Origin: Emiliania huxleyi CCMP1516 | Taxonomy: Eukaryota | Reading direction: 5' to 3' | NCBI RefSeq assembly: GCF_000372725.1 | Contig: NW_005201298.1 | Span: 74,093-119,232, forward strand | Length of the DNA: 45,140 nt | Shown here: positions 1-43,399 of the stretch, piece by piece | How the letters are laid out: each line of letters starts with the position of its first letter | Position numbering within the stretch: the first letter of the stretch is position 1 | Made by a program: the position numbers and the translations under genes | Notes under the pieces: model-generated | What the model saw: the letters and a program-made list of their open reading frames with translations, nothing else | Databases searched by the model: none | What the model was told of the DNA's origin: nothing

Positions 1-99
1 ACTCTCCCACCTCTCTATCGCCGAGCAGAGGCCCAGGCGCCGCAACGGAGCAGCTGAGCCGTTGTTCACTCCTCCGCCTCCCTCTCCGCCGCGCTGCAG

Positions 100-2728
100 G
101 GCCTCAACGCGCAGCTCTACTACCGCAACAAGGACCCGCGCGAGTGCGCCACCCTCGTCCGGACGTCGGGAAGCCAACCCGCTCCTCATTGCTCCTCATT
201 GGCTCCTGACTCATCACCGGCTTTAGGTACATCTCCCTCGTCCCGACGTCAGCACACACGGGCGAAGGGGTGGCCGACATCCTGATGAACCTCGTGGGCA
301 TGACGCAAAAGATGTTTGTGGACCGCATCATGTGGACGCCGATGGCGAAGTGCCGCGCCGACCTCCGCGACACGTCCGGGACACGTCCAGGACACGTCCC
401 GACAGGTGGACGCCGATGGTGCAGTGCACCGTACTCGAGGTCAAGGTGATCGAGGGGCTCGGCGCGACCGCCGACGTGACCCTCGCAAACGGGGCGCGGG
501 GCGGACACGCCCACGACACGTCCACGACATGTCCGAGACATGTCCTTAGGTGTGCCGCGGCTGCAGGCGGACACGTCCACGACACGTCCACGACACGTCC
601 GAGGCGTGTGCCCCCGTAGGTGATCCTCGCCAACGGCACTCTCAAGCGCGGGGACCGGATCGTCATGTGCGGCTTTGGCGGGCCGGTCGTCACGCGCGTG
701 CGCGACCTGCTCACGCCTCGCCCGCTGCGCGAGCTGCGCGTCAAGGCCGACTACCTCCACCACCAGGAGCCCGACCGCCCCTCCCGGCTGCTCCCCTCGG
801 CTCACCTCGGCTCCACCTTGGCTCCTCTCGGCCTCCCCTCGGCTCCACTTCGGCTCACCTCGGCTCACCTCGGCTCACCTCGGCTCACCTCGGCTCACCT
901 CGGCTCACCTCGGCTCACCTCGGCTCACCTCGGCTCACCTCGGCTCACCTCGGCTCACCTCGGCTCACCTCGGCTCACCTCGGCCACCAGGAGATCGACG
1001 GCGCCGCCGGCATCAAGATCTGCGCCAACCACCTCGAGAACGTCGTGGCGGGCTCCGCCTGCCTCGTCCCGTTCAAGGACGTGCCGTACGACCTCGAGGC
1101 GCTCAAGCAGGACGCGACGGGCTCGTCTTCTTTTCTTTCTTCCAGCCGTGTTTTCTTTTCTGTAGGTGCTCAAGGAGGACGCGATGGGCGAGCTTGTAGA
1201 CAAAGCCGGCCGAGGCACTGCGGCGGCACGGAGGTGCAGATCGGTACCAAGTCATTCCTAGGCGACCTCAACGAGCTGCGGCCAAGGCGGCGACACGTCC
1301 ACGGCACGTCCACGACATGTCCGAGACGTGTCGGATAGGCGACCTCAACAAGCTGGCTAAGGCGGCGTCCGAAGTGAACGGCGGGCTCGGCGTCTACGCG
1401 ATGGCGTCGACCCTCGGCTCGCTCGAGGCGCGGCTCGGGCTCCGTACCGCACCTCCAGAGTACCGAACCCAGTGTGGGTTCAGTCCCGTGGGCGGTGCGG
1501 TAGGCGCTCCTCGAGTTCCTCAAGACGTCAAAGGTCCCCCGCCCCNNNNNNNNNNNNNNNNNNNNNNNNNNNNNNNNNNNNNNNNNNNNNNNNNNNNNNN
1601 NNNNNNNNNNNNNNNNNNNNNNNNNNNNNNNNNNNNNNNNNNNNNTATCCCCGTCGCGGCCACATCTCCCCACATCTCCCCACATCTCCCCACATCTCCC
1701 CACATCTCCCCATCCCCCCCACACCTCTCCCCCGCACAGATCCCCGTCTCTACCACATCTCCCCACATCTCCCCACATCTCCCCATCCCCCCACACCTCT
1801 CCCCCGCACAGATCCCCGTCTCCGCGGTCAACATCGGGCCCATCCACAAGAAGGACGTCATCAAGGCGTCCATCATGCACGAGTTCAAGCCCGAGTACGC
1901 CACCATCCTCGCCTTCGACGTGCCGCTCACAAAGGAGGGCGAGCTGCAGGCCAAGGAGTCGCAGGTCAAGGTCTTCACCGCCGAGATCATCTACCACCTG
2001 TTCGACCAGTTCACAAAGTACATGGCGGACGTGCGGCTCGAGCAGCAGGCAAAGGCGGCGACCACCGCCGTCTACCCCGCCATCTGCAAGGTCTCGTCGC
2101 CCGACCTAGCACACTTCCTCGACACTTCCTCGACACTTCCTCGACACTTCCTCGACACTTCCTAGGTCTCGTCGCCCGACCACGTCTGGTGCCGCGGCGG
2201 GGGAGGGGACCCGATCTTGCTGGGGCTGGCGGTGCAGGAGGGGACCCTCAAGAAGGGCACGCCGCTCTGCGTCGAGCGGCGCGGGCAAAAGGACCCCGAG
2301 ACGGGGCTGCAGGCCTGCAAGACACCGGGCCACCAGAGAACACGAACGGCCCCCTACGCCTGCGCCAGCGCACTCCTCTTTTTTGGGCGGGTAGGCCTAC
2401 CTCGACATCGGGCGCGTCGTCTCGATGGAGCCCGAGAAGGGGAAGCAGGTGGACGTCCTCAAGGCGGGCAAGTCTGCCGCGGTCAAGATCGACGCCGTCA
2501 CGTCGATCCAGTACGGCCGGCAGTTCGACCACACCTACCCGCTGTACGCGCGCGTGACGCGCCGCTCCATCGACGCGATCAAGGAGCTCTTCAAGGAGGG
2601 CGGAAGAGCTGGTGTGAACGGCGTCTCTTCACACTCACTGCTGTGAACAGGAGTTCTTCAAGGAGGACCTCTCCAAGGACGACTGGGCGCTGCTTCTCAA
2701 GCTCAAGAAGCAGTACGGCGTCATCTGA
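100..2728 (+). CDS. eIF5B: Eukaryotic translation initiation factor 5B (IF2 homologue), 3' part; 5' end lies outside the window
   Basis: Manual exons 100-143, 227-331, 406-475, 620-766, 991-1098, 1166-1187, 1339-1427, 1504-1533, 1812-2090, 2166-2312, 2395-2583, 2651-2728 join in one frame. They give eIF5B hallmarks [86 protein letters not shown] and RRSIDAIK. Stop TGA at 2726-2728. Confidence 0.95.
797..984 (+). repeat. Intronic 10-bp tandem repeat (CTCGGCTCAC)n
   Basis: Visible array inside eIF5B intron 767-990; the same unit occurs on the - strand at ~11898-11935 in another intron. Confidence 0.95.
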
Positions 2729-3252
2729 GCGGCGCGGCTCGTGCCTTGTGGCACAGTGCAGAGAGCCACCGGAGTCCAGCCGGACACCGGAGCTGCGTCT
2801 CTGGAGCCGAGCGATCAGCGAACGCGTTGATCTTTTAAACAGGGTGGTGGACAGTGCTACGGCTTTAATTTTTTTCAATTTTCATTCAGCCTATGGCCGA
2901 CTGCACGCTAAAGGCTACACGCTCGCACACCACTTGCTGAGTGGCTCTCCCAGGCGCTCAGCCCACGGCGGAGGCACGCCAGGCCCCGGGGAGTCGGCCG
3001 TCACTCGCCTGAGCGCCTAAGCGGCCTAAGCGGGGGTGCTTAGGGTGCTTAGGCGCTTAGGTGGCCCTTGCGAGCGTGGCGGCGTGGTGATATCGTAACA
3101 CAAGTGACTCCGACACTCATGATGCTCCTGCTAGTGTCATCGCTCGAAGAGCAGCCTCACCACGTCCACTGTCTACCACTGGCCCTGCCCCTGGTCGGCG
3201 CAAACTGCCGCAGCATCAGCCTCGTCACACGCCTCCGCCAGCGCCGTGATCC

Positions 3253-3920
3253 TTATTCAGTCCCTGTACTCTTGTATCGCTGCCGCGACCGTGTCCGCAC
3301 CTGCATGGTCCAGCAAGTCGCCGTGAAAAACCAAGCGACAGAATGGAAGCCACTATCGTCGGGACCTGACGAGAGGCTTGATACGATCCGACCCTGCGAC
3401 CCTGACGCTGCTGCTCTAGCTATCAGACATGCACTGCTGACTGCTGCCACAATGTGCGACCTGTGCTTGCCCACTAGGCGGCCTTCCCGGTCAGTGGTGA
3501 GGCGCAGTTCAGAGCTGTCGATGGCGCGATGCCGCACTGGTCCCACATTGGTGACACGAGACCGCCAAGTTTGCCGGTCCAAGAGAGAGGCACCGGCGCT
3601 GTCCTGAGAAGGTGCGTGGTCCCTCTTGACTGCCCATGCGCGCGAGGCTGTGTAGGCATAGCCTCGAGAGTGCCAGCAGCCAATCCGAGGCAGTTTGTGA
3701 CGCGCATTGCGTCAGAAGCGTGCACGCAGCTGGAAGCGTGGAAGGACACCTTCCTACTGGCCGTACCGTGTTGAACGGCGATCATCAGCAGCGTGTCACC
3801 AGCTCTGTTGGCCGCGTTTACGTCGGCCGCGTCGCTGCTGAGCCACGCCCGCAGCACTCCCACGTTGCCGTTCGCCGCCGCCCTCACGACGTTCGGCGGC
3901 GCCTTCACGATGCGCGGCAT
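3253..3920 (-). CDS. Small ankyrin-repeat protein or fragment; exon structure uncertain
   Basis: The ATG at 3920 gives VVRAAANGNVGVLRAWLSSDAADVNAANRAGDTLLMIAVQHG, an ankyrin consensus, followed by a GT donor. The downstream exon is not securely identified. Confidence 0.45.
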
Positions 3921-4111
3921 TGCCGAGAGGGGGGGGGGGGGGGGGGCGCCCCGTGTTTCCGTTCCTCTTTGCGGGCTCTGTTTGCTGCCTCTGCTTGAAA
4001 TGACGTCCGCAAAAAAAGAAATCTTGACACCGAGTCCACCGTGGAGGCACAAAAGGCACAGTCCGAACACATCTGCCGGGGCCCGGCCAGCCACAGTCAG
4101 CAGTCTCCCCA

Positions 4112-4696
4112 ATGGCGGAGCAATTGTGGCACACCGTTTTCGAGGACAGCAAGATTGGGCAGCAGCCGCAGCGCGTGATCGGCGAGCTGCTCGCGGCGGC
4201 GTTCCAGGAGGTGCTGCCATCGATTGAGTCGGTGCCACCGATAAGGTTCAACACGACGGCTTGCGACGCCGCGGGCGGGAAGCTGCAGACCCAACAGTGG
4301 CGCTTGCTGGAGTTGTCACTCGAGAATCTGCAGCACGCAACCATCTTTGGAGGAGACGGCAGCGGCCAGTTTGGAGTGTGCCGGCCGCGCGCGCCCAGAC
4401 AAGGAATCAGAGCACAGCTGGCGTTCTTGGAGGCGCATCCCGAACGTAAGGTTTGTGTGATGCTGCCAATCACGGTGCCACTGCTTCGCAAGGTGGCAAC
4501 CATACTCGTCTTTGACTACCTGCTGTGGAACTACAATCGATTCCGCAACTACAAGGCTAAGCGGCCACCCATCTTGCATTACACCCGGAACACCTTTGTG
4601 CGGCGGAGCAGCACCGGCGCTCCTCTCTCTCTCGCCACCTTCTCGCCGGCCAGCATCGCCTCGCCTAGCGCGCCGTTCGCCTTCATTGGTGCGTAG
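4112..4696 (+). CDS. Hypothetical protein (194 aa)
   Basis: ATG-initiated ORF with protein-like composition; no recognised domain. Confidence 0.3.
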   Translation: MAEQLWHTVFEDSKIGQQPQRVIGELLAAAFQEVLPSIESVPPIRFNTTACDAAGGKLQTQQWRLLELSLENLQHATIFGGDGSGQFGVCRPRAPRQGIRAQLAFLEAHPERKVCVMLPITVPLLRKVATILVFDYLLWNYNRFRNYKAKRPPILHYTRNTFVRRSSTGAPLSLATFSPASIASPSAPFAFIGA

Positions 4697-5547
4697 ACTC
4701 TATATAATCTCGGGTTATCTCGCGTCATCTCGGGTCTCGGGTACTCTCACCCGGCACGGCCCCCGTCCCTCTCGTAGACAACGAGTTTGGGACGCACGCG
4801 AAACTTGGCGCGGTCCGAATCCTGAACGCGTCTCGCTCGGACCACCGGCACGACGTTTGCAAGGCATTTCCGAGCTACGTAGACTACGCGAGTTTCAGGA
4901 CCTACGTGAAAAGGAGCGCGGGCTATGCAATCACGGCCGACGCTGCGATTGGCTGCCCGCTTGCACCCGCCCTCGTCGCTGACTTGAATCGTTACGGCAG
5001 TGGCGCAGCCTTTGCAGACGCGGTGCTGAGCGCGAAGCGTCTCGCGCGCTCCGCCTGCGTGCAACGCCTGTGGAGGCGCACGTTCAGCTCACCGGGCTGC
5101 CCCAATCTGCGCGGCTACCTTGCAGCCCGCTACGATACGCTCGTGGTGGGCTTGCGGGCATGGGGCTGTGCGGCTGTGGTGCTCTAGATATGTGATAGAA
5201 TATGTATGTATCTAAGGAGAGGATTCACAACTTTGGAGGGGGGAGCCGCTTTGAAAAGGCTTTGTCCGTGGAGACGGCATCAGAAAAGTCGCTTGGAATT
5301 TCCGCCACTTTAGAAAAGAGGCGTGGCAACGGAGAACGGTTTACGGGGCGACTTTAAAGTTGGGCGACTAAATTTAGGTAGGCGCGACAGCGATGGTCGT
5401 CTACCGTGCCAAGCGCAAGGGTGGGCCGGGCTCGACCGGACGTCCTATCGATTTGGATTGCGCTCCGATGGCCGACAAGTTCAAAAAAGAATTTAAACAA
5501 AAGAACTCTCTCTCACAGCAGACAGGCTCGACACAGGTGCGAACTAC

Positions 5548-5599
5548 AAAAAAGAAAGAAAGAAAACGGACAACCCAAGGGAGGGATGGGAGGACGGCA
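5548..5599. repeat. Dispersed ~50 bp repeat (AAAAAGAAAGAAAGAAAACGGACAACCCAAGGGAGGGATGGGA), copy 1
   Basis: Near-identical copy at ~5951-6000, an inverted copy at ~44818-44858 and a diverged copy near 24630-24690. Confidence 0.85.
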
Positions 5600-5642
5600 C
5601 GCCGCCACCACACAGGGATTTTAAGGAGAGGGGTGTGGTGCA

Positions 5643-6678
5643 CTAGCCGTCGCCCACCCTTGGGCGTCCGCCTCTTCCTATCTCTCTTCGCAGTCTCTCT
5701 CCGATTCTCGCTGCGACCGTCGTGCCACCTCGCGGTCGCCCCCTTCTCGTCGTGCTCTCCCTTGTCGCTTCTTCCTCTGTCGCGTCGCTCTCCTCTGTCT
5801 CGTTCTGCGACGCCGCCGCCGCCTGCCGGTCCCTTGTTCTCGCGGCTTCTTTCGCCTTTCGGCGCAGCTCCGCCCTCCTCGCTGCATATCCTGGCCCCTC
5901 GAGTCTATCGAGCTCTCCTCGCGCAAGGACGAGTCTTCTGACGAGTCCAGAAAAAGAAAGAAAGAAAACGGACAACCCAAGGGAGGGATGGGAGGACGGC
6001 GTCTATTATTTCCTGCAGCTCTCCCCGCTCCGTTTCGTGGACATCGAGTGCCTTCCTCCCAACCTTGATGAGCAGTCGAAGCCAGTCTTCGACTCGCTGC
6101 CCGGCCTCGATAACATCGGTGGCGCAGTCTTTGGCATGCTGCACCATTCCTAAGATCTTGTTGGCGATCTTAAACACTTTTCCGACCACCGGAAAGTCCT
6201 CGAGGACATCAAGCGCTTCCTCAATGGTGTCTAATGTTCCTGTCGCGGCGGTGATCACGTGGCCGGCCGTGGTGTCAGCACGCTCGGCGCGTTGCAGTCT
6301 GTTTGTGTAAAATTCCAGGAATTTTTCCAGCTTGTCGAGCTGCTCAACCATGCGCTGCTTCGCCGAGATGGCTGGCGCTGCTTCGAACAACTCAGGAGCA
6401 GGCGATGCCGTAGCCTTGGCCCTCGCCTCCGCCTCCGCTTTCGCCGCAGCGGCCGCCTCCTTCTCCAGCCGCGCCGACTCGCGCTTCTCCGCAGCCTGCT
6501 TTGCCTTCACCTCCTCCGCCGTCCTCTTCGCCGCCTCAGCCTCCGTGCGTGCCTTCTCCTTCGCTTCCCTCCCCCCGGCCGGGAGGTCGGCGTCACGCCA
6601 GAGCGTTATGGGCCTAGACCGAGCGTTACGTGGTGACTGGCGTGGGTGCGCGCGACGACCTGGCGTCCGCGCTTCCAT
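5643..6678 (-). CDS. Coiled-coil protein with an MLKL-N-terminal-like helical bundle segment; possibly interrupted or pseudogenised
   Basis: ORF 5905-6678 contains TLDTIEEALDVLEDFPVVGKVFKIANKILGMVQHAKDCATDVIEAGQRVEDWLRLL, which resembles four-helix-bundle N-termini of MLKL/NLR-like proteins. The frame appears to continue in ORF 5643-5975 after the 50 bp repeat, with no clean AG in phase. Confidence 0.4.
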
Positions 6679-7003
6679 GTCGTTCTGCGCGAGAGGTCAA
6701 CCCTCGCCAGAGGTCCTCTTGTGCCAAAAGTTTGCTTTCCAAAAGCTTCATGCATGCATGCAACTTTATGTTTGCTGCTGGTGGTTCGGTTGGTGCTGTA
6801 GGTTTGTGGTCCGGGCTGTGGTGCTACTGCTGTCGTGTGCGCACGGTCTCCCTGCTGCGCCATGCGCCTGCCGGGTCCGTTATACGGCGTTTTCAGTCGC
6901 GAGTCGGGCCTTCGGCGGTTCGGGTCGTTTTGATTTAGTTTTATGTACTTTCCCGCGTTCTTGCGCTACTGAAAGCGTAATCCGTAAAATCTAAAACAAG
7001 ACT

Positions 7004-7399
7004 TTGTCCCCAGACCCCACAACCACCCCGAAACAAACCGAAGCACTGCCACTGGCGCAAGGAAACATGGCCGCCACTGTTGTCCCCCACACCCCCCCGT
7101 CTCGCACACGCCCAGGGTACGGTACACACACGCCACGACAGTTGGGCTAATCGTGCGGCAACTTCAGGACATCAGGAGTACCCGGACCCTCTCACAGACC
7201 CACTAGATCCCCTCGTCGTCGTGTCCCAGTGTTGTTGCATGTCGAGCTGGCGCCGTCGCCCGGTCACACACACACTCGAGTCCAGGCACACTAGAGGACT
7301 GCCTGAGCTCACAGGGGCATGTACTACTCACTATATTCACACCTACTATGCTGTTTTCACACCGATCATAATACGCGATCGCGCAGATCACCCCCTCAA
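7004..7399 (-). mobile_element. Possible polypurine tract and 3' LTR of the copia remnant
   Basis: On the - strand, TTGAGGGGG (7399-7391) is followed directly by TG, about 100 bp after the RNase H stop. The far LTR end is not determined and no partner LTR is seen. Confidence 0.4.
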
Positions 7400-7499
7400 C
7401 GCCTGCACGGAAGATGGCTGACGTGGTGGGGTTGCACAACGACAGCTAGCCCCTTGGTAGGGCTTGTCATGAGCGGTCGCGTTGCTGACTTGGCCACTT

Positions 7500-7735
7500 T
7501 TAGGCGATCATGAAGCTGGCCAACGGGTGGAAAATGCTTGCTGCCAGTGGCTTCGTCATGAGGTCAGCCAGCTGGCCCTGCGTCCGAATATGGTACAGGT
7601 ACACTCGCTTTGCCTCCTTGACTTGCTCGCGGAGGAAAGCAATTTTCGTTGCGACGTGCTTCATCCGTTTGGACGAGGTATTGCCGTCCGAAAGAAGGAC
7701 CGCCGCTTTATTGTCGCAGTAGACTGGTGGGCGCG
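7500..7735 (-). mobile_element. Ty1/copia retrotransposon remnant: RNase H C-terminus
   Basis: VYCDNKAAV...SKRMKHVATKIAFLREQV...HIRTQGQLADLMTKPL matches the copia RNase H motif set (CDN, KHI, ADxxTKPL). No RT or integrase is seen upstream. Confidence 0.9.
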
Positions 7736-8116
7736 GCAGTTGGCGCGCCACCCGGTGGAGCGCCACGTGCGCCACCGCTTCTGATGACCGTCGTCCATCC
7801 GCCATAGCATTGGAGTCGGTCGGGAGACGGTGCTCCTTCGCCGGCATCGATTGTAGACATCTCGGCGAATAGGAAGACGTAGGTGCTGTGCGAATATTCG
7901 CGCGTTGACGCGGGCGCTGGACTGCGGCCGCGACGCTGGTTGCGGCGAGCGCCTAGACGGTGCTCGTCGCAAACAACGAAAGATGAAACAACGAAGTAAG
8001 AAATACCTTTGGGTAACGGCAAACACAACCATAATCCACGGCCTCGGCGCCTCCGGCGCTGATCGCTACTGGCTCCCCTCTCGCTCGCCGTGCTTCACTG
8101 GCATAGGCCAGCCACC

Positions 8117-8875
8117 ATGCCGCCGCCGTTTTGGGGCGCGATCGATGCGGCGCACACCTTCTGCGAGCCGAAGTATGCAACTTCCACCGTCGTCGCCGAA
8201 TTCTTCAATGCGCTCTCGTCGTTCGTCTACATGGCAGCTGGGGCGGCCATGCTCTGCCGTGGCTGCCACTGGAAGGTCGGTGCGGGCTACGCAATGCTCA
8301 TCGTGGTTGGCGTGGGCTCGGTGCTCTTCCACGCCACCATGCGCTTCACAATGGAGCTCTGTGACGAGGTCCCGATGCTGCTGCTAATCATCGCCTTTCT
8401 CCTCGGCAAGGAGGATTGCCTCGATTGCCTCTCGGGCCCAGCCGGGCGGCGGCGATTCCGCGTGGGCTCGGCGGTGGCCGTCGCGCTCTCCACCGCCGCG
8501 TACATCCACTTCAAAGTGTACCAGATCTTTGTCATCTCATTCACGCTGATGGTGCTCTTCCTGATCGCGACGCACTTCTTCCCGTCGGCGCGCCGCCGCT
8601 GGACGCCCGCCCTCCAGACCTGCTTCGCGCGCGCCGTCGGCGGCATCGGCGCCGGCAAGCTCGTGTGGGAGGCGGAGCAGCGCCTCTGCGCCGCGCACCC
8701 CGGCGTGTGGCCGCTGCACATCGCGTGGCACGTCCTATCGTGCATCGGAGGCGTCTACGCAACCAAATACAATGAGGAGCTGCGCGCGATCGTCGCCATC
8801 GAGGGGACGAAGGAGGCTGGCCGTGAGCCGCGGCGATCGCCACGACTGGTGGGGGCGCACACGAAGCGGCACTGA
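8117..8875 (+). CDS. ACER: Alkaline ceramidase (CREST superfamily), intronless
   Basis: FWGAIDAAHTFCEPKY...AEFFNALSS, GSVLFHATM, DEVPM and HIAWH motifs, plus several hydrophobic helices; ATG at 8117 in GCCACCATG context. Confidence 0.92.
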   Translation: MPPPFWGAIDAAHTFCEPKYATSTVVAEFFNALSSFVYMAAGAAMLCRGCHWKVGAGYAMLIVVGVGSVLFHATMRFTMELCDEVPMLLLIIAFLLGKEDCLDCLSGPAGRRRFRVGSAVAVALSTAAYIHFKVYQIFVISFTLMVLFLIATHFFPSARRRWTPALQTCFARAVGGIGAGKLVWEAEQRLCAAHPGVWPLHIAWHVLSCIGGVYATKYNEELRAIVAIEGTKEAGREPRRSPRLVGAHTKRH

Positions 8876-9900
8876 AATAGATTGGTGGCCGACCCGGGCC
8901 GCGGCGGTGCGACGTGTCCACGCATGCGATGTCCACGTGTCGCATGCGATGTCCACGGGCGCGGCGATGCGACGTGTCCACACGCCGTCTACGACGGCCC
9001 CACAACGGCGTCCTCGCCGCCTGGGCATGAATGAAATGAAATGAATGAATGAATGAATGAATGCTGTGGACGCCGCAGACTGGCTCCGACTTGACGGGCG
9101 CATGGAGACGTGATGCTTCCATGCGCCCGTCGAGTCAAAATCGACATGCGAGGCGATCTTTGGCCCGCCAGAGGGATAGGCGGCGTTTTGGGCGACAAAC
9201 AGCGCTGCGACCGTGAAGTGGCGGTGGACATGCTCCCATGTCGTTGCCGACGCGGCGCCGGAGTGGCCGGCGACTGGCCGGCGCTGCTCGCCGCGACCGC
9301 CACGACGGCTCGTACTCTGATACTCCGGGCCGACCCACGGTGCGGAAATGAGAGGGGCAAAATTTCAGCCTCACTATGGCGGCCTTTTGACAGTCGTCCC
9401 GGCTCCGGCCAAGCCCCAATCGGGTCCTTTCATACCAGATCTGGGCCGAGTGAAGCGCCTGCGGAGTGAGTAGGCACACGCCACGGGTGAGCACCGGATC
9501 GTTCTCTCGGCCACTCACTTCCGCAGGTCGCCGCCTGCTGGCGCAGCGCCCGGATGGGCCATATCAAGCGGCGGGCGCAGGATACGCGGCACTGTGTATT
9601 GGGAGCGGGTTGTTTCGCCCCAAGTGCGCGGGCCGGCAAAGGCGCTCTGCGACGCCACAGCCAACTCGCGCTGCCGACCTCAGACAGCTTGGCTCGGCAG
9701 GGCGGTGACAGCGACCCGCACGCGAGCTGCACCCCACCGCCCGCCTCCTATAGCCGTAACATGCCTCGGCTTGTCTGGTGAACTCTCGAGCGAGAACACA
9801 CACAACACGTGTGTGTGGGCGTTGGGGGCACACACACGCGCTAGACTGTGCGGGTACGGACGGATTCTACTAAAGCGGCACTAGCTGGTCGCACCAGCCG

Positions 9901-10470
9901 CTAGCGCGCAGGCGGTGCCCGACAGGCTCCGCCGCCCACGGCTGCTTGAGCGTCTTCTTCGCGTGCACAACCAGCTCGTGCGCCTCTGCCGAGGAGTGGA
10001 GAAGTACTGCAGCAGCGCGAGAGCATACTCGCGCAGGGCGGCCTCCTCGACCAGGACAGCAACCCCAAACATCGGGCCGGTCCTCTCGAGCAGCTTGAAG
10101 CCGATCCGGTCGCGCATATGGTCACGACGTAGAAAAAGGATGGCGGGAGATGGCGTTGCGCATGAAAGGCCCGAACAAACCGCTCGGGGATGTTGTCGAG
10201 GGGATCCCACGTCCAACCATCGACATCGTCGCCTTCCCAGGCGATCAGAAGCTCGATCCCCCCAGCTCTCTGCCGCCACGAGATGACCTTCTCGACGTTG
10301 TAGCTCTCTGGCAGCACGGCCGTTTTCGGCCCCGCCCGGACCTGCGGCGGTTTTGGTTGGATTCCGTGAGATACCGATTTTTCTGTCACTGAATAATTGG
10401 CATAGTGCTTGCCATGAGGGTGTTGAGGGTTGGGGGGGCGGTGGTATGCGCCACATAAATCGGGAAGTAC
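9901..10470 (-). CDS. Chromodomain-containing ORF or fragment; start uncertain
   Basis: YNVEKVISWRQRAGGIELLIAWEGDDVDGWTWDPLDNIPERFVRAF (~10160-10305) fits the chromodomain consensus Y.VE.I...R.....L..W.G.....TW.P..N. Confidence 0.6.
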   Translation of the reverse strand, partial: VLPDLCGAYHRPPNPQHPHGKHYANYSVTEKSVSHGIQPKPPQVRAGPKTAVLPESYNVEKVISWRQRAGGIELLIAWEGDDVDGWTWDPLDNIPERFVRAFHAQRHLPPSFFYVVTICATGSASSCSRGPARCLGLLSWSRRPPCASMLSRCCSTSPLLGRGARAGCAREEDAQAAVGGGACRAPPAR

Positions 10471-11065
10471 CATCCTGTGCGCCGCAAAGGCCGATCGCGC
10501 CCGACGGTGGGGCGGCTCACCGCACACACACAGTTGCGAGGCCGAGCCCGCCGGGCGCGTAGAGCCGAGTGGCCGGGGGGGAGGCGGACCAGGGAAACCG
10601 CGCGCGGCAGTGCGAGGTGACACGATGTGGCGCGGGCACGGCGGGGGAGACGCAGACGGCGCTGTGCTAGGGGGGCGCGGAGCGCACATGGCACATTGTA
10701 GCGCAGAAAAGGGACTCGAAAAGGGCCTGATGAGTGTGGGAAAAGTGGAACAAGCTCCAGTCGCACCGTGCCCGTCTCCTACCCGACGGTGGCACTCTTC
10801 CACGTCTCGCTCACGCTGAGAAAAATTCTGAAACTAGAACACCCAACATACGCACGGTTCCGCCAAAAGAGTGGCAAGTGCCGCGCGCGCCCTCTCTCCG
10901 TTCGCGCTCTCTCGAGCGCACACATGGACATGCAAGATGCATGCCTGCCCCACCACACCATTATACAGTACACGGGGCTCGCGTTGAGATACACACATTT
11001 GCGGCGCGGCGGCGCTTTGCCCGCTTCGCGGCGCGCGCTCCTGCCCCCTCCGCCCGCCCGCCGCC

Positions 11066-13704
11066 TCACAGCTGCTTGACCATCGGCTGTGAGCTTCCAA
11101 ACGGGTCCCGCACCAGCGACCACTGCTCGGGCAGCAGCGCCGGCCGCGCCCCCTCGTCACCGCGCCGCCCCTTGCGACCGCGGCGAGCAAGCGGCGCGCC
11201 GGACGGCGGGGCGGCCTCGGCGTAGCCCCGCCTGCGCCAGAAGCCGACCGTGTCGTGGCCCGCGAGCACGACGACAGTGCGCACGCCGAGCTGCTCCGCG
11301 AGCCATGCCTCGGCGGCGCCCAGCAGCGCCGCGCCGATGCCGCGGCCAGCGTGGCTGCTCGCGACGGCGAGGAGCTGCACCTGTGCTCGCGGGTGCAGCT
11401 GTGAAGAGAGCGCCGTGCACAGTGGCGAGACAGCGAGGCGCCGCGCGCCTCGCAGAAGGAGGCGGCGGCGTGCGGGATGAGGGTGAGCGCCCCGACGATC
11501 GACTCCTTCCCTTCGAGGCGAGCGACAGCGGTGCGGGCGCCCTGGCCGTGCACGAGCAAGTGCAGAAAGTCGGCGCCGCGCCGCTTGCGCTGCGGGCTGA
11601 GCCCGGGGTGGGCCGGCGAGCAGGGAACGTCGGGAGGGAGGTCGACGTTGCACTCCGGCAGCCTGCGCCGGTAGAGCCGGAGCGCGTGCGCCTGCGAGAT
11701 CATCACTCGAGGTCAGGGGAGGTGAGGGGAGGTGAGGGGAGGTGAGGGGAGGTGAGGGGAGGTGAGGGGAGGTGAGGGGAGGTGAGGGGAGGTGAGGCGA
11801 GAGGAGGCGAGAGGAGGCGAGAGGAGGCGAGAGGAGGCGAGAGGAGGCGAGAGGAGGCGAGAGGAGGCGAGAGGAGGCGAGAGGAGCCGTGATGAAGCCG
11901 AGGTGAGCCGAGATGAGCCGAGGTGAGCCGAGATGCGCCTCTGCGGGCGAGAAGCTGCCAAAGGCGGCGGGCGGAGGCTGCAGCTCGAGGGTCACACCGG
12001 AGGAGGAGAGGTCGGGGCCGGCGGCGGAGGCGGCGAGGGGGACTGCCGCCGCCGTGGCGGCGGGCGGGGCGGGAGGGGCGACGGTGTACTCGACCGAGCG
12101 GCGGGTGGGGCGATGCCGCGAGCTGGCCGGAGGCGGCGGGGTGGGCTGCGGCGGCGGGGAGGAGGAAGCGGCAGCGGAAGCGGCGGCGGCGGCTGCGGCG
12201 GCGGCGGCGGAGGTGGAGGAAGTGGAGGCGGCGGCGGAGGCGGAGGCGGAGGAGGAGGAGGAGCGAGAGACGCGCGAGCTGAGCCGCGGCGCCGTGGCGG
12301 CGGCGCGAGCGCGCGTGGTCCGCTTGATCGGCGAGAGGGGCTTGGCCTGCGACGGCGGTGGCGGCTTGGGCGACGCGCCCGCGTTGCGCAGCTCAGCGAG
12401 GGCGGCGCGGCGCGAGGTCGAAAAGGAGGCGCCGAATGGGCCCTCGCCGGCGGAGGGACTGCTAGCCGCCGCCTCCTTTCGGGCGGGCGGCGGCGCGGCG
12501 CTGGCCCAAGACGGCGCGTTGCAGCCTGCCCATCCGTCGCCATCCCCGAGGCGGGCGGGTGGGGGCCCGCGTGTGGGTCGGACCTGGCTTGCCCGCCGCC
12601 CCGACCGACTCCCCCTCTGGCCGCCCGCTGCGGCGGCGCTGGCGGCAGCAGACGCGCTGGCGGCAGCAGACGCGCTGGCGGCAGCAGACGCGCTGGCGGC
12701 AGCAGACGCGCTGGCGGCAGCAGACGCGCTGGCGGCAGCAGACGCGCTGGCGGCCGCTGCCGGTGCGGCGGGGGCCGCTGCCGCGCGGCTGGCGGAAGCT
12801 GCTGCGGGCGGCTCGGTGGCCGTTTGCCGGCGAGCTGCCGCCTCGTCGCGCCGCCAAGAGGGCGGCAGGACAGAGGCGGACGAGGACGGCGGGGCGGACA
12901 AGGCGGCGGCGGTGGAGGGACGGTGGGCGAGGGCGGGCGCGTCGGCGACGGCCGGGCGGCCGGAGGTGATGGTGGCGAGGAGCCACTGCTCATCCGCCTA
13001 TGTGGGGTGTCGCGGCCGTGTCGTGGACGTGTCCCGCGCCGGTGGAGGCGAGAGACGGCCGCCTCGGCAAGGCGGGCGCGCGGCTGATTGCGGTGCACCT
13101 GCGGGAAGGCTCCGAGCGACGCTTCGGAGGAGGGCCCCGAGTCTGGCGTGGCCGGCTTGGGAGGGGGCGCGGGAGGGAGGAGAGGGGCGGAGGCCGAGGC
13201 CGAGGGAGTGGAGAAGAGAGTCGGGGAGGGAGAGAGATGGAGGGGAGGCGGGAGGGAGAGGGCATATACCTCGACGGCGCCCGCGTCGGAGATGGGGCGT
13301 CCGTACTGGACGCGCGCACCCGCCTCGCAGCAGAGGGAGCACAGGTCGGCGTGCGGCATCACCGTCGCGCCTCGCAGCGTCACGGTGAGCCCCGCAAGCG
13401 CGCGGCCGCCTCCGCTCAGCCGCGAGAGTTGCGCGCCCGGGACGTGCGGGAGCATCCCCTCCTCGAAGGGGGCGGGGTCGACGGCGACGCCGCGATTCCG
13501 CGCGCACGCGGCGACGTACTCCTCGCCGACGATCCAGTGCCCCCGCGCGAGCGCCCGCAGCAGCTTGAGCGTTCGCCGCACGGGACGGCCGCCCGCGACG
13601 GTGACGGGCTCTCCGCGGACGAGCGTGGCGCGGACGCGGTCGTGGATGTGGGCGAAGCAGCGCTGCGTTGCCTCGTCGTCGACGCCGGTGAGGGAGAAAG
13701 ACAT
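11066..13704 (-). CDS. Tandem-BRCT, Ala/Ser/Pro linker and GCN5-like GNAT acetyltransferase protein (multi-exon)
   Basis: N-terminus RRTLKLLRALARGHWIV (BRCT1) and LAGLTV...LCCEAGA...DEQWLLATI (BRCT2). C-terminus IVGALTL...FCE|VQLLAVASSHAGRGIGAALL...GFWRRRGY carries GNAT motifs A and B. Introns at roughly 13269-13099, 13060-12998, 11935-11692 and 11447-11381. Confidence 0.75.
11712..11935 (-). repeat. Compound intronic 10-bp repeats (CTCCCCTCAC, CTCCTCTCGC, CTCGGCTCAC)
   Basis: Three adjacent 10-mer arrays are directly visible. Confidence 0.95.
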
Positions 13705-14408
13705 CGGAGGGGAGAGGGAGATCGGCGAAGCGGCGCGGCTATCAAGAGCGGCAATTGAAAAAGAATCGCGCGGCCCCGTCCGATGGTCTGCTGCCCCGCG
13801 CAGCAACCGTCGGGCGACGACCCGGGGGCCAAAAACCCGGCGACGACGGCGCTCTGGATGGGGCGTGACCTCCTGCCTCCAACCTCCTTCCTTTTTGAGC
13901 AGGTGTGACGCCGCGCGAGCGACGCTCCGAGATCGCCCGAGATAGCGCGGCGCGGCCCCGAGATCGCCCGAGATAGCGCGAGATCGCCCGAGATAGCGCG
14001 GCGCGGCCCCGAGATCGCCCGAGATCGCGCGGCCCGAGATCGCGCGGCGCGGCCCGGGGCGGGGTGGATGGGTTGGGAGCGAGGGGGCGGAAGTGTTCAG
14101 TGCGGTAGATGGTAAGCTCGAGGCGCGTGAGCCGGACTTGTGAGCCGGACCACCCCCTCTTGTTATCTGCGTTGTTGAGCCAGGACTCAACATACTCGGG
14201 CTTACTCATCCCAAACTGTCACTCCCCTTTCTCCCGGCCGAGGTGGGGCGCGCGCGGGGGCGGCGGGTGTGCGCGGGTGTGAGGGATGTCTGTGAGCCCG
14301 AGAGCGATATGCCATGTCCGCCTTGCGTTTGTTTTCATAACATCGAAGGCTAAGCTCAAAAAAGAATTGTCGCTGGGGTCGCACGACACGATTCAAAAAG
14401 AAACAGAC

Positions 14409-14927
14409 ATGTTCGACGCCATCGTCAACGACCCGAAGGTGCACCCGGCGACGCGAGCGCACTTCCGCTCGACGAAGCAACTCGGGGCGGGCGCGGTGCT
14501 CGGCATCGACGTCGTCCACAAGGACGTCGAGCTGAACGACAAGGCGTGGCTCCACGAGGCGCAGGGCTACCTCAACCACCCCAAGGGCGCCATCACCCTC
14601 GCCACGCGCTGCGTCGGCGTGGGCCCTAACTCGAGGGCGTACGGGGTAGCCGTCACTTTCCTGCCTCACAAGGGCGGGGCTGTCCCGGAAAGTGAGAGAC
14701 GCCGGGCAGCGTGGCGCATTACTGAACCCTCCCATACGTGTTTGGGGTTCCTCCTTTGCTGTCCCATCCCCTCCTCTCTTTCCCGCCTGGGCGGGGCGGT
14801 GGGCGGGCGCGCGGTGCGGCGTGGCGTGTGCGTGTGTGCGACTGCAACGAAGGACCGCTCGCAGAGGACCATTGGGTTTGTACTATTAACAACGAAGGCG
14901 CTCTCAAAAGAAACACATGTGCGGTAG
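14409..14927 (+). CDS. Hypothetical protein
   Basis: MFDAIVNDPKVHPATRAHF... shows strong third-position GC bias up to ~14680; no domain recognised and the 3' end is uncertain. Confidence 0.4.
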   Translation: MFDAIVNDPKVHPATRAHFRSTKQLGAGAVLGIDVVHKDVELNDKAWLHEAQGYLNHPKGAITLATRCVGVGPNSRAYGVAVTFLPHKGGAVPESERRRAAWRITEPSHTCLGFLLCCPIPSSLSRLGGAVGGRAVRRGVCVCATATKDRSQRTIGFVLLTTKALSKETHVR

Positions 14928-14975
14928 AGTGCTGGAGTGCTGGACTGAGAATCAGCAGCGCGCCCAGCCCACCCC

Positions 14976-15513
14976 ATGCCAGCCAGGATCGAGACTCGCC
15001 TGTCGCCGGACGGCGAGTGGCGCAAGAGCGGCGTTCTCGCCGGCGGCAGCGTCGTCGTCGGCCGAGCGCAGTTTGATGGTGCGCCGGACGCAAAGAGCAT
15101 CTCGCGCGAGCACTTTGATCTCAGGCTCTCTGCCGATGGTGCGCAAGTGACCGTGACGAGCATGAGCGGGAGCCCGAGCCACATCCACGACGCTGAGGAT
15201 GACCAGCCCACGCGGCTCGCCAAGGGCCAGGCCGTCCCGCTCGCATACGGCCAGCTCGTCTCACTCTCCAGGTCGCAGCGCTGCCAGCTCCGCGTTGTGC
15301 TCGATGGAGTGGCTGCGGCTCCGGCGGCTGCAGACTCGGCGGTCGCCGCCCCCGCGGCTGCGCGCCCACCCAGTGCGAGCGGGGCGGTGGTCGTGCACGA
15401 TCTGATCTCTGACGACGACGACGACGACGAGGTGCGGGTGACGGAGGCGCGAGCACCAGTCACACTCGACCTCACCGCAGCCGGGCCATCTGGCGGCGAG
15501 CGCGCAAAGCGGC

Positions 15514-15547
<34 letters not shown>

Positions 15548-17893
15548 CGGCGGCGGCCCCGCGCCTCGGCGAGACGCTGCGTCGGCGCTGGGGGCCGAAG
15601 AGGTGATCGACTTGGAGGCGGCCAACGGGGTCGGTCTCGGTGCGAGCGGCAAGCCGCTGCTGCCGGGCGAGCTCGAGGCGAGGCAGCAGCGCAGGCCGAG
15701 TTGGGTTCGGGGCCAAGAGGCTTCGACGAGCTTTCCCGGAGCCCCTCCCTTAGCTCTCCCGTAGGCGCCGCTCGGCTGGGACACGGCCTGGCTTCGCGAG
15801 TCCAAGACAACGCGTGCATGACATGTACATGTGCATGACATGTACATGTCCCTAGGCGCCGCTCGCCTCGCACGTCCCTCGAGGCATGTCCACGACACGT
15901 CCACGACACGCCCACGACACGTCCGGGACACGTCCACAGGCGCAGCTCGTGGACGCTACGCGCGTCTCGATCGACCGAAGAGACTCCCGAGGAGCAGCAC
16001 TACCGCCTCGCGGAGAGCGCGTTTTGCCGCGGCGGAGGGGTGGCGGCGCAGATCGCAAGCATCGACTACCACTTCCACCCCGCTCTCGAGGCCGCGCTGG
16101 CAGAACACAAACCCCACTCGCGGGCAGAGGACGCGGCACAGGACGGGGCACACGCGCCAGTCCGCAGACACGGGGAGGAGCGGTAGTGACGCTCACCCCC
16201 TCCCAGAGAGCCATTCTGCGAGAGGCCGCCGTGTTCGCCCCGCTTGGCGGGGAGTCTATAAGCGACGACGGCATCAGGCGCGCTGGCACGCCAAGAAGGC
16301 GGACTACGACGCGACGTACGGCCCTGGCAACCACACCATCCTCTTAATTAACTATGAAGTGACTCTTGAGTGACTCTTCATTCACTCTTAATGAATAGGC
16401 AACCACACCATCCTCTTAATTAACTATGAAGTGACTCTTGAGTGACTCTTAATTAATTCACTCTTAATGAATAGACAACCACACCATCCTCTTAATTAAC
16501 TATGAAGTGACTCTTGAGTGACTCTTCATTCACTCTTAATGAATAGGCAACCACACCATCCTCTCAATTAACTATGAAGTGACTCTTGAGTGACTCTTCA
16601 TTCGCTCTTAATGAATAGGCAACCACACCATCCTCTTAATTAACTATGAAGTGACTCTTGAGTGACTCTTCATTCACTCTTAATGAATAGGCAACCACAC
16701 CATCCTCTTAATTAACTATGAAGTGACTCTTGAGTGACTCTTCATTCACTCTTAATGAATAGGCAACCACACCATCCTCTTCGCCTTCCACGGCACGCGG
16801 CAGGCAAACGTGCGCCCGATCCTGGCGGAAGGATTCAAGCTCTCCAAGGTCGAACTATTACTTAACCAACCATTCATTTATTATTGGTTACCTATTAATC
16901 ATCTCCAAGGTCGGCTCAACGACCGACCCGGGCTTCTACGGCGCGGGAATCTACTTTTCGGAGCAGCTGCAGATGTCGATGGGATACAACAGCGGGAGCG
17001 ACTCATCCTAGAAGCAGAGCACGGATTCTTGCATCCCAGCCAGCGCTCGAGAGGACACGTATTCAACGGTATTCAGCCGATTCCACTGTGGTTCACTGTC
17101 GCCCCTCGTATTCACGCGGCGCTCTGAAGACGCCGCACGAGACCGTCCTCCCGCCCTCATGTCGGCGTACTCACCCTGTAGGAACGACGGCATGTTCCTC
17201 TGTAAGCTCCTCGTTGGCAAGCCGTTCCTCGCGCCGCTGCAGCAAGGGCGAGGGCTTCAGGCGGGCTATACGAGCCACGTGTCGGACGCGAGCGGCAGCG
17301 AGGTGATCATGTTTGACGAGGCGCGAATTAACATCTCAATCACTCGTTAATTAGTTAGTTCATATGTTAATTAGCTCACCATGTGTGACGAGGCGGCGAT
17401 GCTGCCGCTCTACTTCGTCTTTCTGCGCCCCCAGGGCGCCCACGGCCCTCTCGGCCACCATCATGGCCATCTTGGCCACGCTGCGGCGGCAGCGCACAAG
17501 GAGCCGCTCAAGGGTCTCGGCGGCGGCGGCGGCGGCGGCGGCGGCGTGTTGGGCGGCCTGGGCGGCTTGGGCGGCGCCATCGGTGGAGCGATGCACACGC
17601 TCGGCGGCGCATTTGGCCTGGGTGGCGCCTCATCGTCGTTGCCGGCCGCCGCCGTCGGGGCTGCCGCCGCTCTCGCCGGCGGCGGTGGCTGGGGCGCGGG
17701 CAACGTGCTGGGCGGCGGCAAGAGGCCGCGGGCGGACCACGACGCCGCGGTCGTGGCGCGGCTGCTGAGCGAGAGCCGTGGCGGCAAGGGCCGCCCGCGA
17801 GGGGCGGCCGGGCGCGCGGAGGGCGCGGAGGGCGCGGAGGAGGAGATGGTGCGCGAGGCGATGCGGCGGAGCTTGCTGCCGGGAGGGCGGTAG
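14976..17893 (+). CDS. FHA domain, PARP-type ADP-ribosyltransferase and C-terminal UIM-like protein (~600 aa)
   Basis: Exons 14976-15719, 15765-15811, 15940-16090, 16278-16326, 16763-16848, 16910-16995, 17182-17320, 17393-17893 are in frame. FHA: VVVGR...SISREH. ART: FAFHGT, ILAEGF, GFYGAGIYFS, MFLCKLLVG, SEVIMFD. UIM-like: EEEMVREAMRRSL. Confidence 0.85.
16327..16762 (+). repeat. Six tandem 72-bp units forming one intron of the PARP gene
   Basis: Units start at 16327, 16399, 16475, 16547, 16619 and 16691. Each begins (G/A)CAACCACACCATCCTC, the start of the next exon, and ends AATGAATAG. Confidence 0.95.
16996..17181 (+). mobile_element. Introner-like element, copy 1 (PARP gene intron)
   Basis: Shares CCTAGAAGC, CCCA.CCAGCGCTCGAGAGG, CGTA.TCACGCGG and CCGTCCTCCCGCCCTCATG blocks with introns at 19250-19505, 22768-22982 and 40663-40840. 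Confidence 0.7.
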
Positions 17894-18451
17894 GCGGTGT
17901 TTTGCTCGATTTCAGCTTGCTGCAGCCTGCAGGGAGGGCGGTCCACACACCCTTGGCAGGAGAGGTACCGCACACTCACAGGGTACAGAACCCTAACCCC
18001 TTCCTATGTTCTTCACAGTCTCTTACAGTCCGGCCCCTCTCTTCGGTTCATCCCACATCCGGGCACCCGGGGGAACGAACAACGATCGTCGATCCACAAA
18101 ATCAAAAATTCCCTTACGGCTTTATATTGAGTTTCTCACGCCGCGCATTTTCGGTTTCTGGCGCCAGTCTTGCCGTTCTTATAGATCAGTTTGGACATGC
18201 TCGATGGAAAGAGTGTGCCGTGCGCCCCGAGAATGCCGACATGCGTCGAAAAGGGACTGCGCGGCGTATCTCATCCATCCAACGCGGGCGCACGAATCAC
18301 ACTCGATTGCCCTGCTCTTCCGGCCGATACCGCTCCCACGAGGCGCCAGCAAAGACAACCGGCCGCTGCGCCGCACATGGCGACGGGGCGTCTCGGGGGG
18401 TCTTGGGTACCTTGCCGGGCGGCGCGAACCGGCGCAAGCAAGAGGCCCCGC

Positions 18452-25925: not shown

Positions 25926-26159
25926 CCTTGTGGCGAGAGTTCTGACCTACAAACGAGCGCGCACACACCACCCCAACACACACGAGAGATCAAAAAGAGA
26001 ATTAAAAAAAAAGGAAATTCTTGATTGCCGAATCAGCATGTCACTCGTCGTCTCTCTGCTCCTCGCTCGGCCGGGCGGCGACTCGGGTGGTGCAGAGGCG
26101 CCGCCGCTGCGCGTGCGTGCGCACGAGGCGGCGCTGGAGCACGCCCAGCGGACGACACG

Positions 26160-30391: not shown

Positions 30392-30783
30392 ACCCCTGTA
30401 AAATTCTGTTGAGGGCCCTCGTACGCAGTGTGGACGCGCGCCGCCCAGCGGCGAGCGAGCGTGCTCGGAGTTGGGTCGGCGCGCGCGCGGGCGGACGGCG
30501 CCTGTAAACAGACAGCCTGCCCGCCCACTCGTTCAAAATGTCAAAATCCGTTCACACACACACATTCTTAGTGGCAACTCCGTGCACTGACGGTCGGCCG
30601 CCAGAAAACACGCCTCCGTGGCTCGGGTTACACCAATTCTCGCTACCCAACGCGGCCAAAGGATATCCACCTCGAGAACCTCGAGAACACACTCTGATGA
30701 GCAAATTCTCTATTTTGCTTGCTCGGCACTGCCTCCCAGCAGCGCCCAGCCTGCCCCACGCTACCTCCCGCGGGGTGCGCCGA

Positions 30784-35819: not shown

Positions 35820-35856
<37 letters not shown>

Positions 35857-41128: not shown

Positions 41129-41186
<58 letters not shown>

Positions 41187-41274
41187 TGTGTGTGTGTGTG
41201 TGTGTGAGTGTGTGTGTGAGTGTGTGTGTGAGTGTGTGCGTGAGTGTGTGTGTGTGTGTGTGTGAGTGTGTGAG

Positions 41275-41338
<64 letters not shown>

Positions 41339-42370: not shown

Positions 42371-43399
<1,029 letters not shown>

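What the first reader, a model, noticed from the sequence alone, without database searches (positions are those of the whole stretch)
767..17181. GA-AG introns and a majority of GC donors
Seen: keeping the conserved frames requires GA donors at 767 (CAG|GAGCCC), 2584 (AAG|GAGCTC) and 16996 (GG|GAGCGAC); nearby GC/GT alternatives shift the frame. Across my 29 modelled introns in eIF5B, PARP and hisIE the donors are 18 GC, 8 GT and 3 GA. In most cases the donor dinucleotide simply matches the start of the next exon. Inference: a relaxed 5' splice-site requirement lets duplicated exon sequence act as a donor, which links this observation to the duplication mechanism.
Basis: partly seen in the sequence, partly recalled or inferred. 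Interest (0 to 1): 0.7.

Follow-up and report, generated by a model that had tools for sequence, protein, structure and literature searches.

The report
Algal intron starts copied from exons
In the bloom-forming alga Emiliania huxleyi most introns here start with GC and some with GA instead of the usual GT, which was already known; new here is that the start of most introns is a copy of the next exon's first letters, which likely means that these introns arose as insertions that duplicated their landing site.

Summary
The window is Emiliania (Gephyrocapsa) huxleyi or a very near relative. Spliced contigs of 4 runs (3 studies) fix GA-AG introns at 767-990 and 2584-2650; 16996-17181 rests on protein homology only. 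This mix is published for the species (56/40/4%, one GA junction Sanger-checked; PMC4028052), so the headline is known. The link to duplication is real here: the donor equals the next exon's first two letters in 22 of 25 (10.5 by permutation), and the copy runs well beyond in 14 of 25, against 9 and 2 of 21 in relatives. The introns are not plain exon duplicates: several are dispersed repeats, and the 16996 GA intron belongs to a ~180-nt family with four copies. Best reading: insertions with long target-site duplications, whose first copy serves as a G-not-G donor while the insert brings the AG. The same logic is described for dinoflagellate introners, with short fixed duplications. Long, variable duplications without inverted repeats as the rule in this alga were not found in print. 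Moderate interest.

The parts
100..2728 (+). eIF5B, 3' part (435 codons in 12 exons, 11 introns; includes a 22-nt micro-exon 1166-1187)
   Evidence: 432 of 435 identical to P0002
767..990 (+). GA-AG intron, phase 0; 10-mer array inside; its 3' end repeats the upstream exon's end; same position and GA donor in L031
2584..2650 (+). GA-AG intron, phase 0; first 16 nt copy the next exon (15 of 16)
   Evidence: same letters in DNA contig L010
144..226 (+). GT-AG intron, diverged 24-nt copy of next exon start
332..405 (+). GT-AG intron, 14-nt exact copy, 11-mer repeat filler
476..619 (+). GT-AG intron, 17-nt diverged copy, 11-mer repeat filler
1099..1165 (+). GC-AG intron; 24-nt copy of a micro-exon that itself starts GT (donor differs from exon start)
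   Evidence: contig length fits
1188..1338 (+). GC-AG intron with a second AG + exon-start copy inside at 1262
1428..1503 (+). GC-AG intron
1534..1811 (+). GT-AG intron spanning an assembly gap; next exon starts AT
2091..2165 (+). GT-AG intron, 16-nt exact copy, 11-mer filler
2313..2394 (+). GC-AG intron
15600..17430 (+). PARP-catalytic-domain gene (PF00644 homologues), modelled part: introns 15695-15939 GC, 16091-16277 GC, 16327-16762 GC, 16849-16909 GT, 16996-17181 GA, 17321-17392 GC
   Evidence: homology only
16996..17181 (+). GA-AG intron, phase 2; member of the ~180-nt dispersed family; first 7 nt match the next exon at 6 of 7
16327..16762 (+). intron made of six ~72-nt units, each a complete exon-start-copy...AG unit (one internal unit starts A, not G)
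18560..22380 (-). hisIE (PF01502/PF01503), modelled part, 8 introns (6 GC, 2 GT)
   Evidence: homology only
19250..19505 (-). GC-AG intron, second copy of the ~180-nt family, with a 10-mer expansion inside
19764..22043 (-). GC-AG intron of 34 tandem 67-nt units, each starting with the exon-start copy and ending TAG
22768..22979 (-). third copy of the ~180-nt family; likely intron; donor either GA at 22979 or an in-frame GC three letters upstream (unresolved; not counted)
40663..40840 (-). fourth copy of the ~180-nt family, GC...AG with a 7-nt exact duplication (partial segmental duplicate near 42476)

Best explanation
These are spliced-out introns of Emiliania huxleyi whose first letters copy the next exon, likely because they arose as insertions that duplicated about 7-25 letters of their target site, so that the upstream copy would serve as the splice donor and the insert would supply the AG. 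Shown: the junctions, the copies, the dispersed repeat families inside introns, and that 10 of 11 eIF5B positions are absent from the relatives examined. Inferred: a staggered DNA cut is filled in around a short insert. An insertion in an exon survives only if the duplicate begins with G followed by T, C or A (usually after an exonic AG or G) and the insert ends in AG; removal then restores the mRNA exactly. The donor mix therefore follows exon composition (GC commonest), filtered by a preference GT > GC > GA and a ban on GG. Weak donors then tend to drift towards a G-N-G-C-G-Y context (all GA donors read GAGC). Recombination between the two copies likely multiplies whole introns into arrays. 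The tolerance for GC and GA donors likely predates the gains. The inserting enzyme is unknown. Variable duplication length, no inverted repeats and pyrimidine-rich or tandem-repeat ends point more to retrotransposon-type insertion or break repair with filler DNA than to a cut-and-paste transposase.
For: Junctions. Donor = exon start 22 of 25 vs 9 of 21 in relatives (Fisher p 0.002). Extended copy above the 99th percentile of non-cognate pairs 14 of 25 vs 2 of 21 (p 0.002). Summed score 205.5 vs permutation mean 28, 0 of 20,000. Observed donors 14/8/3 vs phase-matched availability GC 13.1, GT 4.7, GA 7.2. 0 of 24 G-starting exons begin GG (p 4e-4) vs 4 of 19 in relatives. Exon ends: G at -1 in 22 of 25 (9.1 expected), A at -2 in 17 (6.1 expected). 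The ~180-nt family has four separate copies at 68-77% identity, each ending at or just before an AG, with 7-8-nt matches to the downstream flank and no terminal inverted match over 5 nt. An 11-mer filler is shared by 4 of the 25 introns and found at two more intron-like places. A pyrimidine-rich element outside the modelled genes has 11- and 15-nt direct repeats; the copy at 24609 neither starts with G nor ends in AG, as expected where no splicing filter acts. Whole-intron arrays and stacked units: 6 of 10 introns examined hold an internal AG + exon-start copy. Precedent in dinoflagellates.
Against: Only 25 introns in 3 genes of one window; no genome was held. No empty-site allele of E. huxleyi was seen, so insertion is inferred, not observed. 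11 of 25 introns have no copy above background, among them 767 and 16996. 3 of 25 donors differ from the exon start. The 767 position and its GA donor are shared with L031, so that intron may be old (or gained twice). 4 of 25 introns also copy the upstream exon's end (0 of 21 in relatives), which fits plain tandem duplication better than an insert bringing its own AG. The GT and GA departures from availability are not significant (p 0.12). Drift towards G-N-G-C-G-Y is 9 toward, 3 away, 3 neutral, in 19 of 25 introns, with a consensus taken from the relatives' 21 introns. PARP and hisIE introns rest on homology alone. Two other copies of the pyrimidine-rich element show only 7-8-nt flanking repeats.
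Confidence: 0.58

Rival explanations
1. Plain tandem duplication of an exon segment that holds AG|G (Rogers model): the first copy gives the donor, the second copy's AG the acceptor; repeats and elements fill the intron later. This is closest to the first reader's view.
For: 4 of 25 introns copy the upstream exon's end as well (767, 16849, 17321, 18706; summed score 48 vs 12.5 by permutation). A proven mechanism elsewhere (PMC3443670, passages).
Against: In 21 of 25 the intron's 3' end is not exon-like beyond AG. 8 of 25 upstream exons do not end in AG, so their acceptor cannot be a copy. Family members end at or near the acceptor.
Confidence: 0.2
2. Old GT introns whose donors mutated to GC or GA under the genome's high GC content (the explanation offered in PMC4028052); resemblance to the exon is the ordinary AG|G protosplice context.
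For: Donors do change: 2 of 25 are GC/GT swaps against their exon copy. The 767 GA intron has a counterpart in L031.
Against: Cannot give 14-24-nt copies of the next exon. 10 of 11 eIF5B positions are unshared. Three relatives of 63-66% GC (L012, L030, L037) have GT in 7 of 9 donors. GC content does act, but through the exon letters that get copied.
Confidence: 0.08
3. The GA donors are a placement artefact: the true cut lies two letters on, at GC, with a 3' end reading ...AG-GA; or reverse transcriptase jumped between the direct repeats.
For: All 4 GA donors read GAGC (13 of 42 other donors have GC at +3/+4; p 0.015), and the shifted placement gives the same mRNA.
Against: It needs a 3' end other than AG, which none of the other 22 introns requires. 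The same letters are explained by a GA donor needing the usual +3G +4C context. Removal is required for a conserved essential protein and is seen in 4 runs of 3 studies, which argues against template switching.
Confidence: 0.07
4. Existing introns have their ends rewritten from spliced-mRNA (cDNA) templates: repair reads across the exon junction and leaves a piece of the next exon at the intron's start (or of the previous exon at its end), with no intron gain.
For: Would explain copies on either side, stacked copies of different age (1188, 15695, 19048), and a copy-like end at an old position (767).
Against: Most positions are not shared with relatives. Internal copies are preceded by AG, as expected from duplication of whole introns. 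Direct repeats also flank elements outside the modelled genes.
Confidence: 0.07

Closest known systems
E. huxleyi non-canonical junctions (Feldmesser et al. 2014, PMC4028052; passages and supplement search)
   Same: Same species; hand-curated donors GC 135, GT 95, GA 11 of 241, all AG acceptors; one GA junction checked by RT-PCR and Sanger.
   Different: Explains GC by genome GC content; the passages on duplication, repeats and donors that I read do not mention donors copying the next exon.
Dinoflagellate introner-like elements, Symbiodinium and Polarella (bioRxiv 10.1101/2020.10.14.339549; passages and section 7)
   Same: GT/GC/GA donors recruited from the 5' end of a target-site duplication, AG carried by the element, GH at the start of the downstream exon, weak extended donor, GA treated as suboptimal.
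   Different: There: DNA-transposon hallmarks, inverted repeats and fixed 3-8-nt duplications. Here: duplications of variable length up to about 25 nt, no inverted repeats, mixed tandem-repeat fillers, whole-intron arrays; an unrelated lineage.
Introner families already listed for E. huxleyi CCMP1516 (PMC9860276 supplement: 5 families, 653 elements, GA 0; PMC12130899 supplement: 3 families, one 'co-opt 5' carry 3'' with 10-bp terminal direct repeats; rows read)
   Same: Introners, including donor co-option, are on record for this genome.
   Different: Listed families are small or short (average 37-70 nt in 2022; 5-45 members in 2025), mostly GT, none GA, and drawn from an annotation known to misplace junctions. 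I could not compare sequences, so the ~180-nt family may or may not be among them.
Intron gain by tandem genomic duplication and by double-strand-break repair (Daphnia) (review PMC3443670; passages)
   Same: Direct repeats at intron ends; precise gain without change to the protein.
   Different: Described as scattered cases at AGGT sites or with short repeats; here 14 of 25 introns, and any G-H site serves.
GA-AG introns of Eurytemora affinis and Oikopleura dioica (PMC7072748; passages)
   Same: GA donors after an exonic AG.
   Different: There GA is followed by A/T-rich consensus letters and a U1 variant is proposed; here GAGC, and U1 was not examined.

Membership tests
U2-type spliceosomal intron with GA donor | Removed from the transcript at the stated ends | tested here: met
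   767 and 2584: 4 of 4 contig sets; 16996 by homology only
U2-type spliceosomal intron with GA donor | AG acceptor | tested here: met
   TAG 13, CAG 9, AAG 2, GAG 1 of 25; AG was used to choose among equivalent placements, so it is not independent for the exact cut
U2-type spliceosomal intron with GA donor | 5' cleavage exactly before GA (lariat end) by the major spliceosome | not testable with these tools
   direct repeats make GA..AG and GC..GA placements equal in mRNA
Introner (intron-generating mobile element): ~180-nt family | Several sequence-related introns at unrelated sites | tested here: met
   four copies, 68-77% identity, E 1e-9 to 1e-20; two anchored as introns by homology, two only intron-like
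Introner (intron-generating mobile element): ~180-nt family | Target-site duplication at the element's edges | tested here: inconclusive
   7 of 7 at 40840, 6 of 7 at 16996, 7 of 8 at 19505, 6 of 8 at 22979; too short and worn to prove singly
Introner (intron-generating mobile element): ~180-nt family | Presence/absence among alleles or close species | not testable with these tools
   no genome held; no empty-site allele fetched
MITE-type introner (Aureococcus, Symbiodinium) | Terminal inverted repeats | tested here: not met
   longest exact inverted match between ends 4-5 nt in 4 of 4 copies; copies are old, so worn repeats cannot be excluded
MITE-type introner (Aureococcus, Symbiodinium) | Fixed short duplication length | tested here: not met
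   over all 25 introns the copies run from 2 to about 27 nt; within the ~180-nt family 7-8 nt, which is compatible
SINE / non-LTR retro-element | Structured-RNA-derived head (tRNA, 5S, 7SL) | tested here: not met
   no Rfam match at E up to 0.1 over 16900-19600, which holds two copies
SINE / non-LTR retro-element | 3' end shared with an autonomous LINE partner | not testable with these tools
   needs the genome's repeat library
Tandem genomic duplication intron (Rogers) | Intron is a copy of exon sequence at both ends, acceptor AG from the copy | tested here: inconclusive
   3' copy above background in 4 of 25, 5' copy in 14 of 25, both in none

The most novel reading that the evidence does not exclude
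Most introns of E. huxleyi are recent, lineage-specific gains made by a non-transposase insertion process with long, variable target-site duplications. The species' GC/GT/GA donor spectrum is then the exon's G-H dinucleotide spectrum passed through a permissive, exon-defined donor. Because each intron is bracketed by direct repeats it can multiply into arrays of complete introns (6 x 72 nt, 34 x 67 nt) that may be removed unit by unit at AG|GC points, and could also be lost exactly. A similar process with telomere-like filler appears in another lineage (L037).
Probability: 0.35. Interest if true: 0.72.

Novelty: new variant of a known kind. Interest (0 to 1): 0.42.

Why it matters
The headline adds nothing: GC-majority and GA donors are known for this alga, and they explain why its gene models are often wrong. 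If the duplication link holds genome-wide, it replaces a vague GC-content explanation with a testable one and gives a second, independent lineage besides dinoflagellates in which a relaxed donor goes with mass intron gain. It would do so by a route that introner screens, which look for similar introns in annotated GT-biased models, would largely miss. A species with many sequenced strains would let intron birth be caught as polymorphism. It also gives a practical annotation rule: allow any G-H donor and look for the exon-start copy.

Tried and rejected
No genome was held, so no U1, U6, U1C or Prp8 and no genome-wide count. No snRNA or other Rfam family in 22100-40150 or 16900-19600; the rest of the window was not scanned. 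No listed run is on record as RNA; the contigs are taken as transcripts because one contig per run skips ten introns in frame. No transcript was laid on PARP or hisIE, so those 14 introns, the 16996 GA among them, lack direct RNA support. In one search, 15 joints were shown and 19 not; the five shown outside eIF5B's ten were not used. The joint reported as 1115-1334 I re-read as two introns around a 22-nt micro-exon: the contig length fits both, and proteins P0002 and P0123-P0125 read the micro-exon. GT/GC-only models of eIF5B score 62-79 lower and misplace conserved residues: rejected. A first metagenome scan with P0002 found nothing; the second gave 45 loci, of which 10 were splice-aligned. 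L010 (same species), L001 (no intron), L034 and L045 (distant, AT-rich) were left out of the 21-intron comparison. An exact-repeat scan for further introns was swamped by chance matches and was not counted. hisIE introns upstream of 22381 and the PARP gene upstream of 15600 were not anchored by homologues and were not counted. Read et al. 2013 (genome paper) is not held; that it describes short tandem repeats in introns is my recall only. PMC12480563, PMC10290126 and PMC5100056 (passages) gave nothing on this mechanism. No tree was built, so shared descent versus parallel gain at 767/L031 is open.
Full report
Organism. The window is about 64% GC with intron-rich genes. The best match of a hisIE exon is EMIHUDRAFT_451668 of Emiliania huxleyi CCMP1516, 98% over 41 residues. 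eIF5B relatives include a cluster holding Chrysochromulina tobinii. I treat the window as E. huxleyi or a very near relative. No whole genome was held.

Are the GA donors real? Four contig sets from three studies were laid on 1-13800. Their RNA nature is the tool's guess, but in each run one contig skips ten eIF5B introns. At 759/984 the pieces abut with no letter between. Of 11 equivalent placements, two end in AG, and only 767-990 starts with G (the other is CC..AG). At 2581/2649, of 6 placements two end in AG, and only 2584-2650 starts with G (the other is CT..AG). The spliced model equals the transcript-derived protein P0002 at 432 of 435 residues with no gap. DNA contig L010 (1045 of 1054 identical) carries the same GA at 2584. 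For 16996 there is no transcript evidence. Five of five PARP homologues place 16996-17181, and the best GA-free model needs a 7-nt micro-exon. So two GA introns are shown and one is probable. Each could formally be written GC..GA two letters on; cDNA cannot separate these.

The donor mix. This is the published state of the species: GC 135, GT 95, GA 11 of 241 curated junctions, with one GA verified by Sanger sequencing (PMC4028052, passages). That paper ascribes it to GC content.

Is the donor a copy of the next exon? Yes in 22 of 25 (permutation mean 10.5; 0 of 20,000). Identity stays above expectation to about +14, and 14 of 25 exceed the 99th percentile of non-cognate pairs. As a control, 21 introns in eIF5B of six related loci (74-82% protein identity) give 9 of 21 (9.3 expected) and 2 of 21, both in L037. 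The relatives keep a donor consensus (G at +5 in 15 of 21, against 10 of 25 here; p 0.04). Here the information lies on the exon side: G at -1 in 22 and A at -2 in 17 of 25 (9.1 and 6.1 expected). The GC count equals what exons offer (14 vs 13.1), GT is above (8 vs 4.7), GA below (3 vs 7.2); neither departure is significant. No downstream exon starts GG (0 of 24, p 4e-4; relatives 4 of 19). All four GA donors, L031's included, read GAGC although their exons do not (13 of 42 other donors have GC there; p 0.015). The donor is thus relaxed at +2 but not free.

What fills the introns? Not exon sequence, mostly. Only 4 of 25 copy the upstream exon's end. The GA intron at 16996 is 70-77% identical to an intron of hisIE (19505-19250) and to copies at 22979-22768 and 40840-40663, with a partial duplicate near 42476. 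The copies share a start motif 9-12 nt inside, end at or just before an AG, show 7-8-nt matches to their downstream flank, have no terminal inverted repeat and no Rfam match. Four of the 25 introns and two more intron-like places share an 11-mer repeat; other 10-mer families recur between genes. A pyrimidine-rich element outside the modelled genes is flanked by 11- and 15-nt direct repeats, and its copy at 24609 has neither a G start nor an AG end. Two introns are arrays of complete exon-copy...AG units (6 x 72 nt, 34 x 67 nt), and four more of the ten examined hold internal units.

Age. Of 11 eIF5B intron positions, 10 are absent from the six intron-bearing relatives (L008 and L022 span all of them, the others part). 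Each relative has its own set. The exception is 767: L031, with four-fold sites only 31% identical, has an intron at the same codon, also GA-AG. GA tolerance is therefore wider and probably older than this lineage's gains. But 767 is then a poor example of a duplication-born donor: its 5' copy is not above background.

Mechanism. Most likely (0.58): insertion at a staggered cut duplicates the target; in exons only those inserts persist whose duplicate starts G-T/C/A and whose end is AG; later changes strengthen the donor, and recombination between the repeats multiplies introns. The copies, families and arrays are shown; the order of events and the enzyme are inferred. Rivals: plain tandem duplication (0.2), mutation of old GT donors (0.08), shifted GC..GA cut or template switching (0.07), mRNA-templated rewriting of intron ends (0.07).

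Compared with what is known. Dinoflagellate introners recruit GT/GC/GA donors from short fixed target duplications and leave GH at exon starts (bioRxiv 10.1101/2020.10.14.339549, passages and section 7). This window works like them but lacks inverted repeats and fixed lengths. Introners are listed for E. huxleyi in the supplements of PMC9860276 and PMC12130899 (rows read; files 13-14 of the latter not searched): few, mostly GT, none GA, one with donor co-option and 10-bp direct repeats. Direct-repeat-flanked gains are reviewed in PMC3443670 (passages). Nine searches showed no paper stating that E. huxleyi donors are generally copies of the next exon. The 2013 genome paper was not available, so absence from print is not established. 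Earlier scan notes held nothing on this genome.

Verdict. Observation confirmed; headline already known; the mechanistic link is real in this window and is a variant of target-duplication intron gain. Interest 0.42; 0.72 if it proves to be the genome-wide rule (probability 0.35).

Noticed in passing
window 19764-22043 (-) and 16327-16762 (+): Introns built of 34 x 67-nt and 6 x 72-nt tandem units, each a complete GC...AG intron-like unit; candidates for unit-by-unit (recursive) removal. The public hisIE model P0158 begins just after the 67-nt array.
   Followed up: partly
window 16996-17181 (+), 19250-19505 (-), 22768-22979 (-), 40663-40840 (-), about 42400-42477 (-): A ~180-nt dispersed introner-like family, four independent copies in 45 kb, all in intron orientation.
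   Followed up: yes
L031:1825-2074: GA-AG intron at the same eIF5B codon as window 767 in a distant relative of 53% GC whose other introns show no duplication.
   Followed up: partly
L037:290-1097: Four introns ending in telomere-like 6-7-nt repeats, two with 13- and 19-nt copies of the next exon start: the same pattern in another lineage.
   Followed up: partly
window 5551-5591, 5953-5993, 24609-24695, 44801-44873: Short pyrimidine-rich dispersed element, two copies with 11- and 15-nt direct repeats; contigs end loosely at the 5545 copy.
   Followed up: partly
window 41492-41600 and 43028-43136 (-): GT...AG intron-like unit with a 22-nt exact copy of the following sequence and 10-mer filler, in a gene duplicated between about 40700-41900 and 42370-43400 (allele or assembly duplication).
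   Followed up: no
window 1-99: The acceptor at 99 marks an eIF5B intron position shared with L008, L022, L031 and the distant L045; letters 11-28 copy the upstream exon's end but are followed by no usable donor.
   Followed up: partly
window 11030-13705 (-): Gene that by eye has a BRCT-like start and an acetyltransferase-like end (labels recalled, not searched), with 10-mer-filled introns; barely covered by the contigs.
   Followed up: no
window 8116-8875 (+): Intron-less ORF that resembles an alkaline ceramidase by eye (not searched), covered by contigs.
   Followed up: no
P0124, P0125, P0003: Database proteins that run into the internal unit at 1262 or into a longer 2091 intron: signs of alternative acceptor use, intron retention and repeat-number alleles.
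   Followed up: partly
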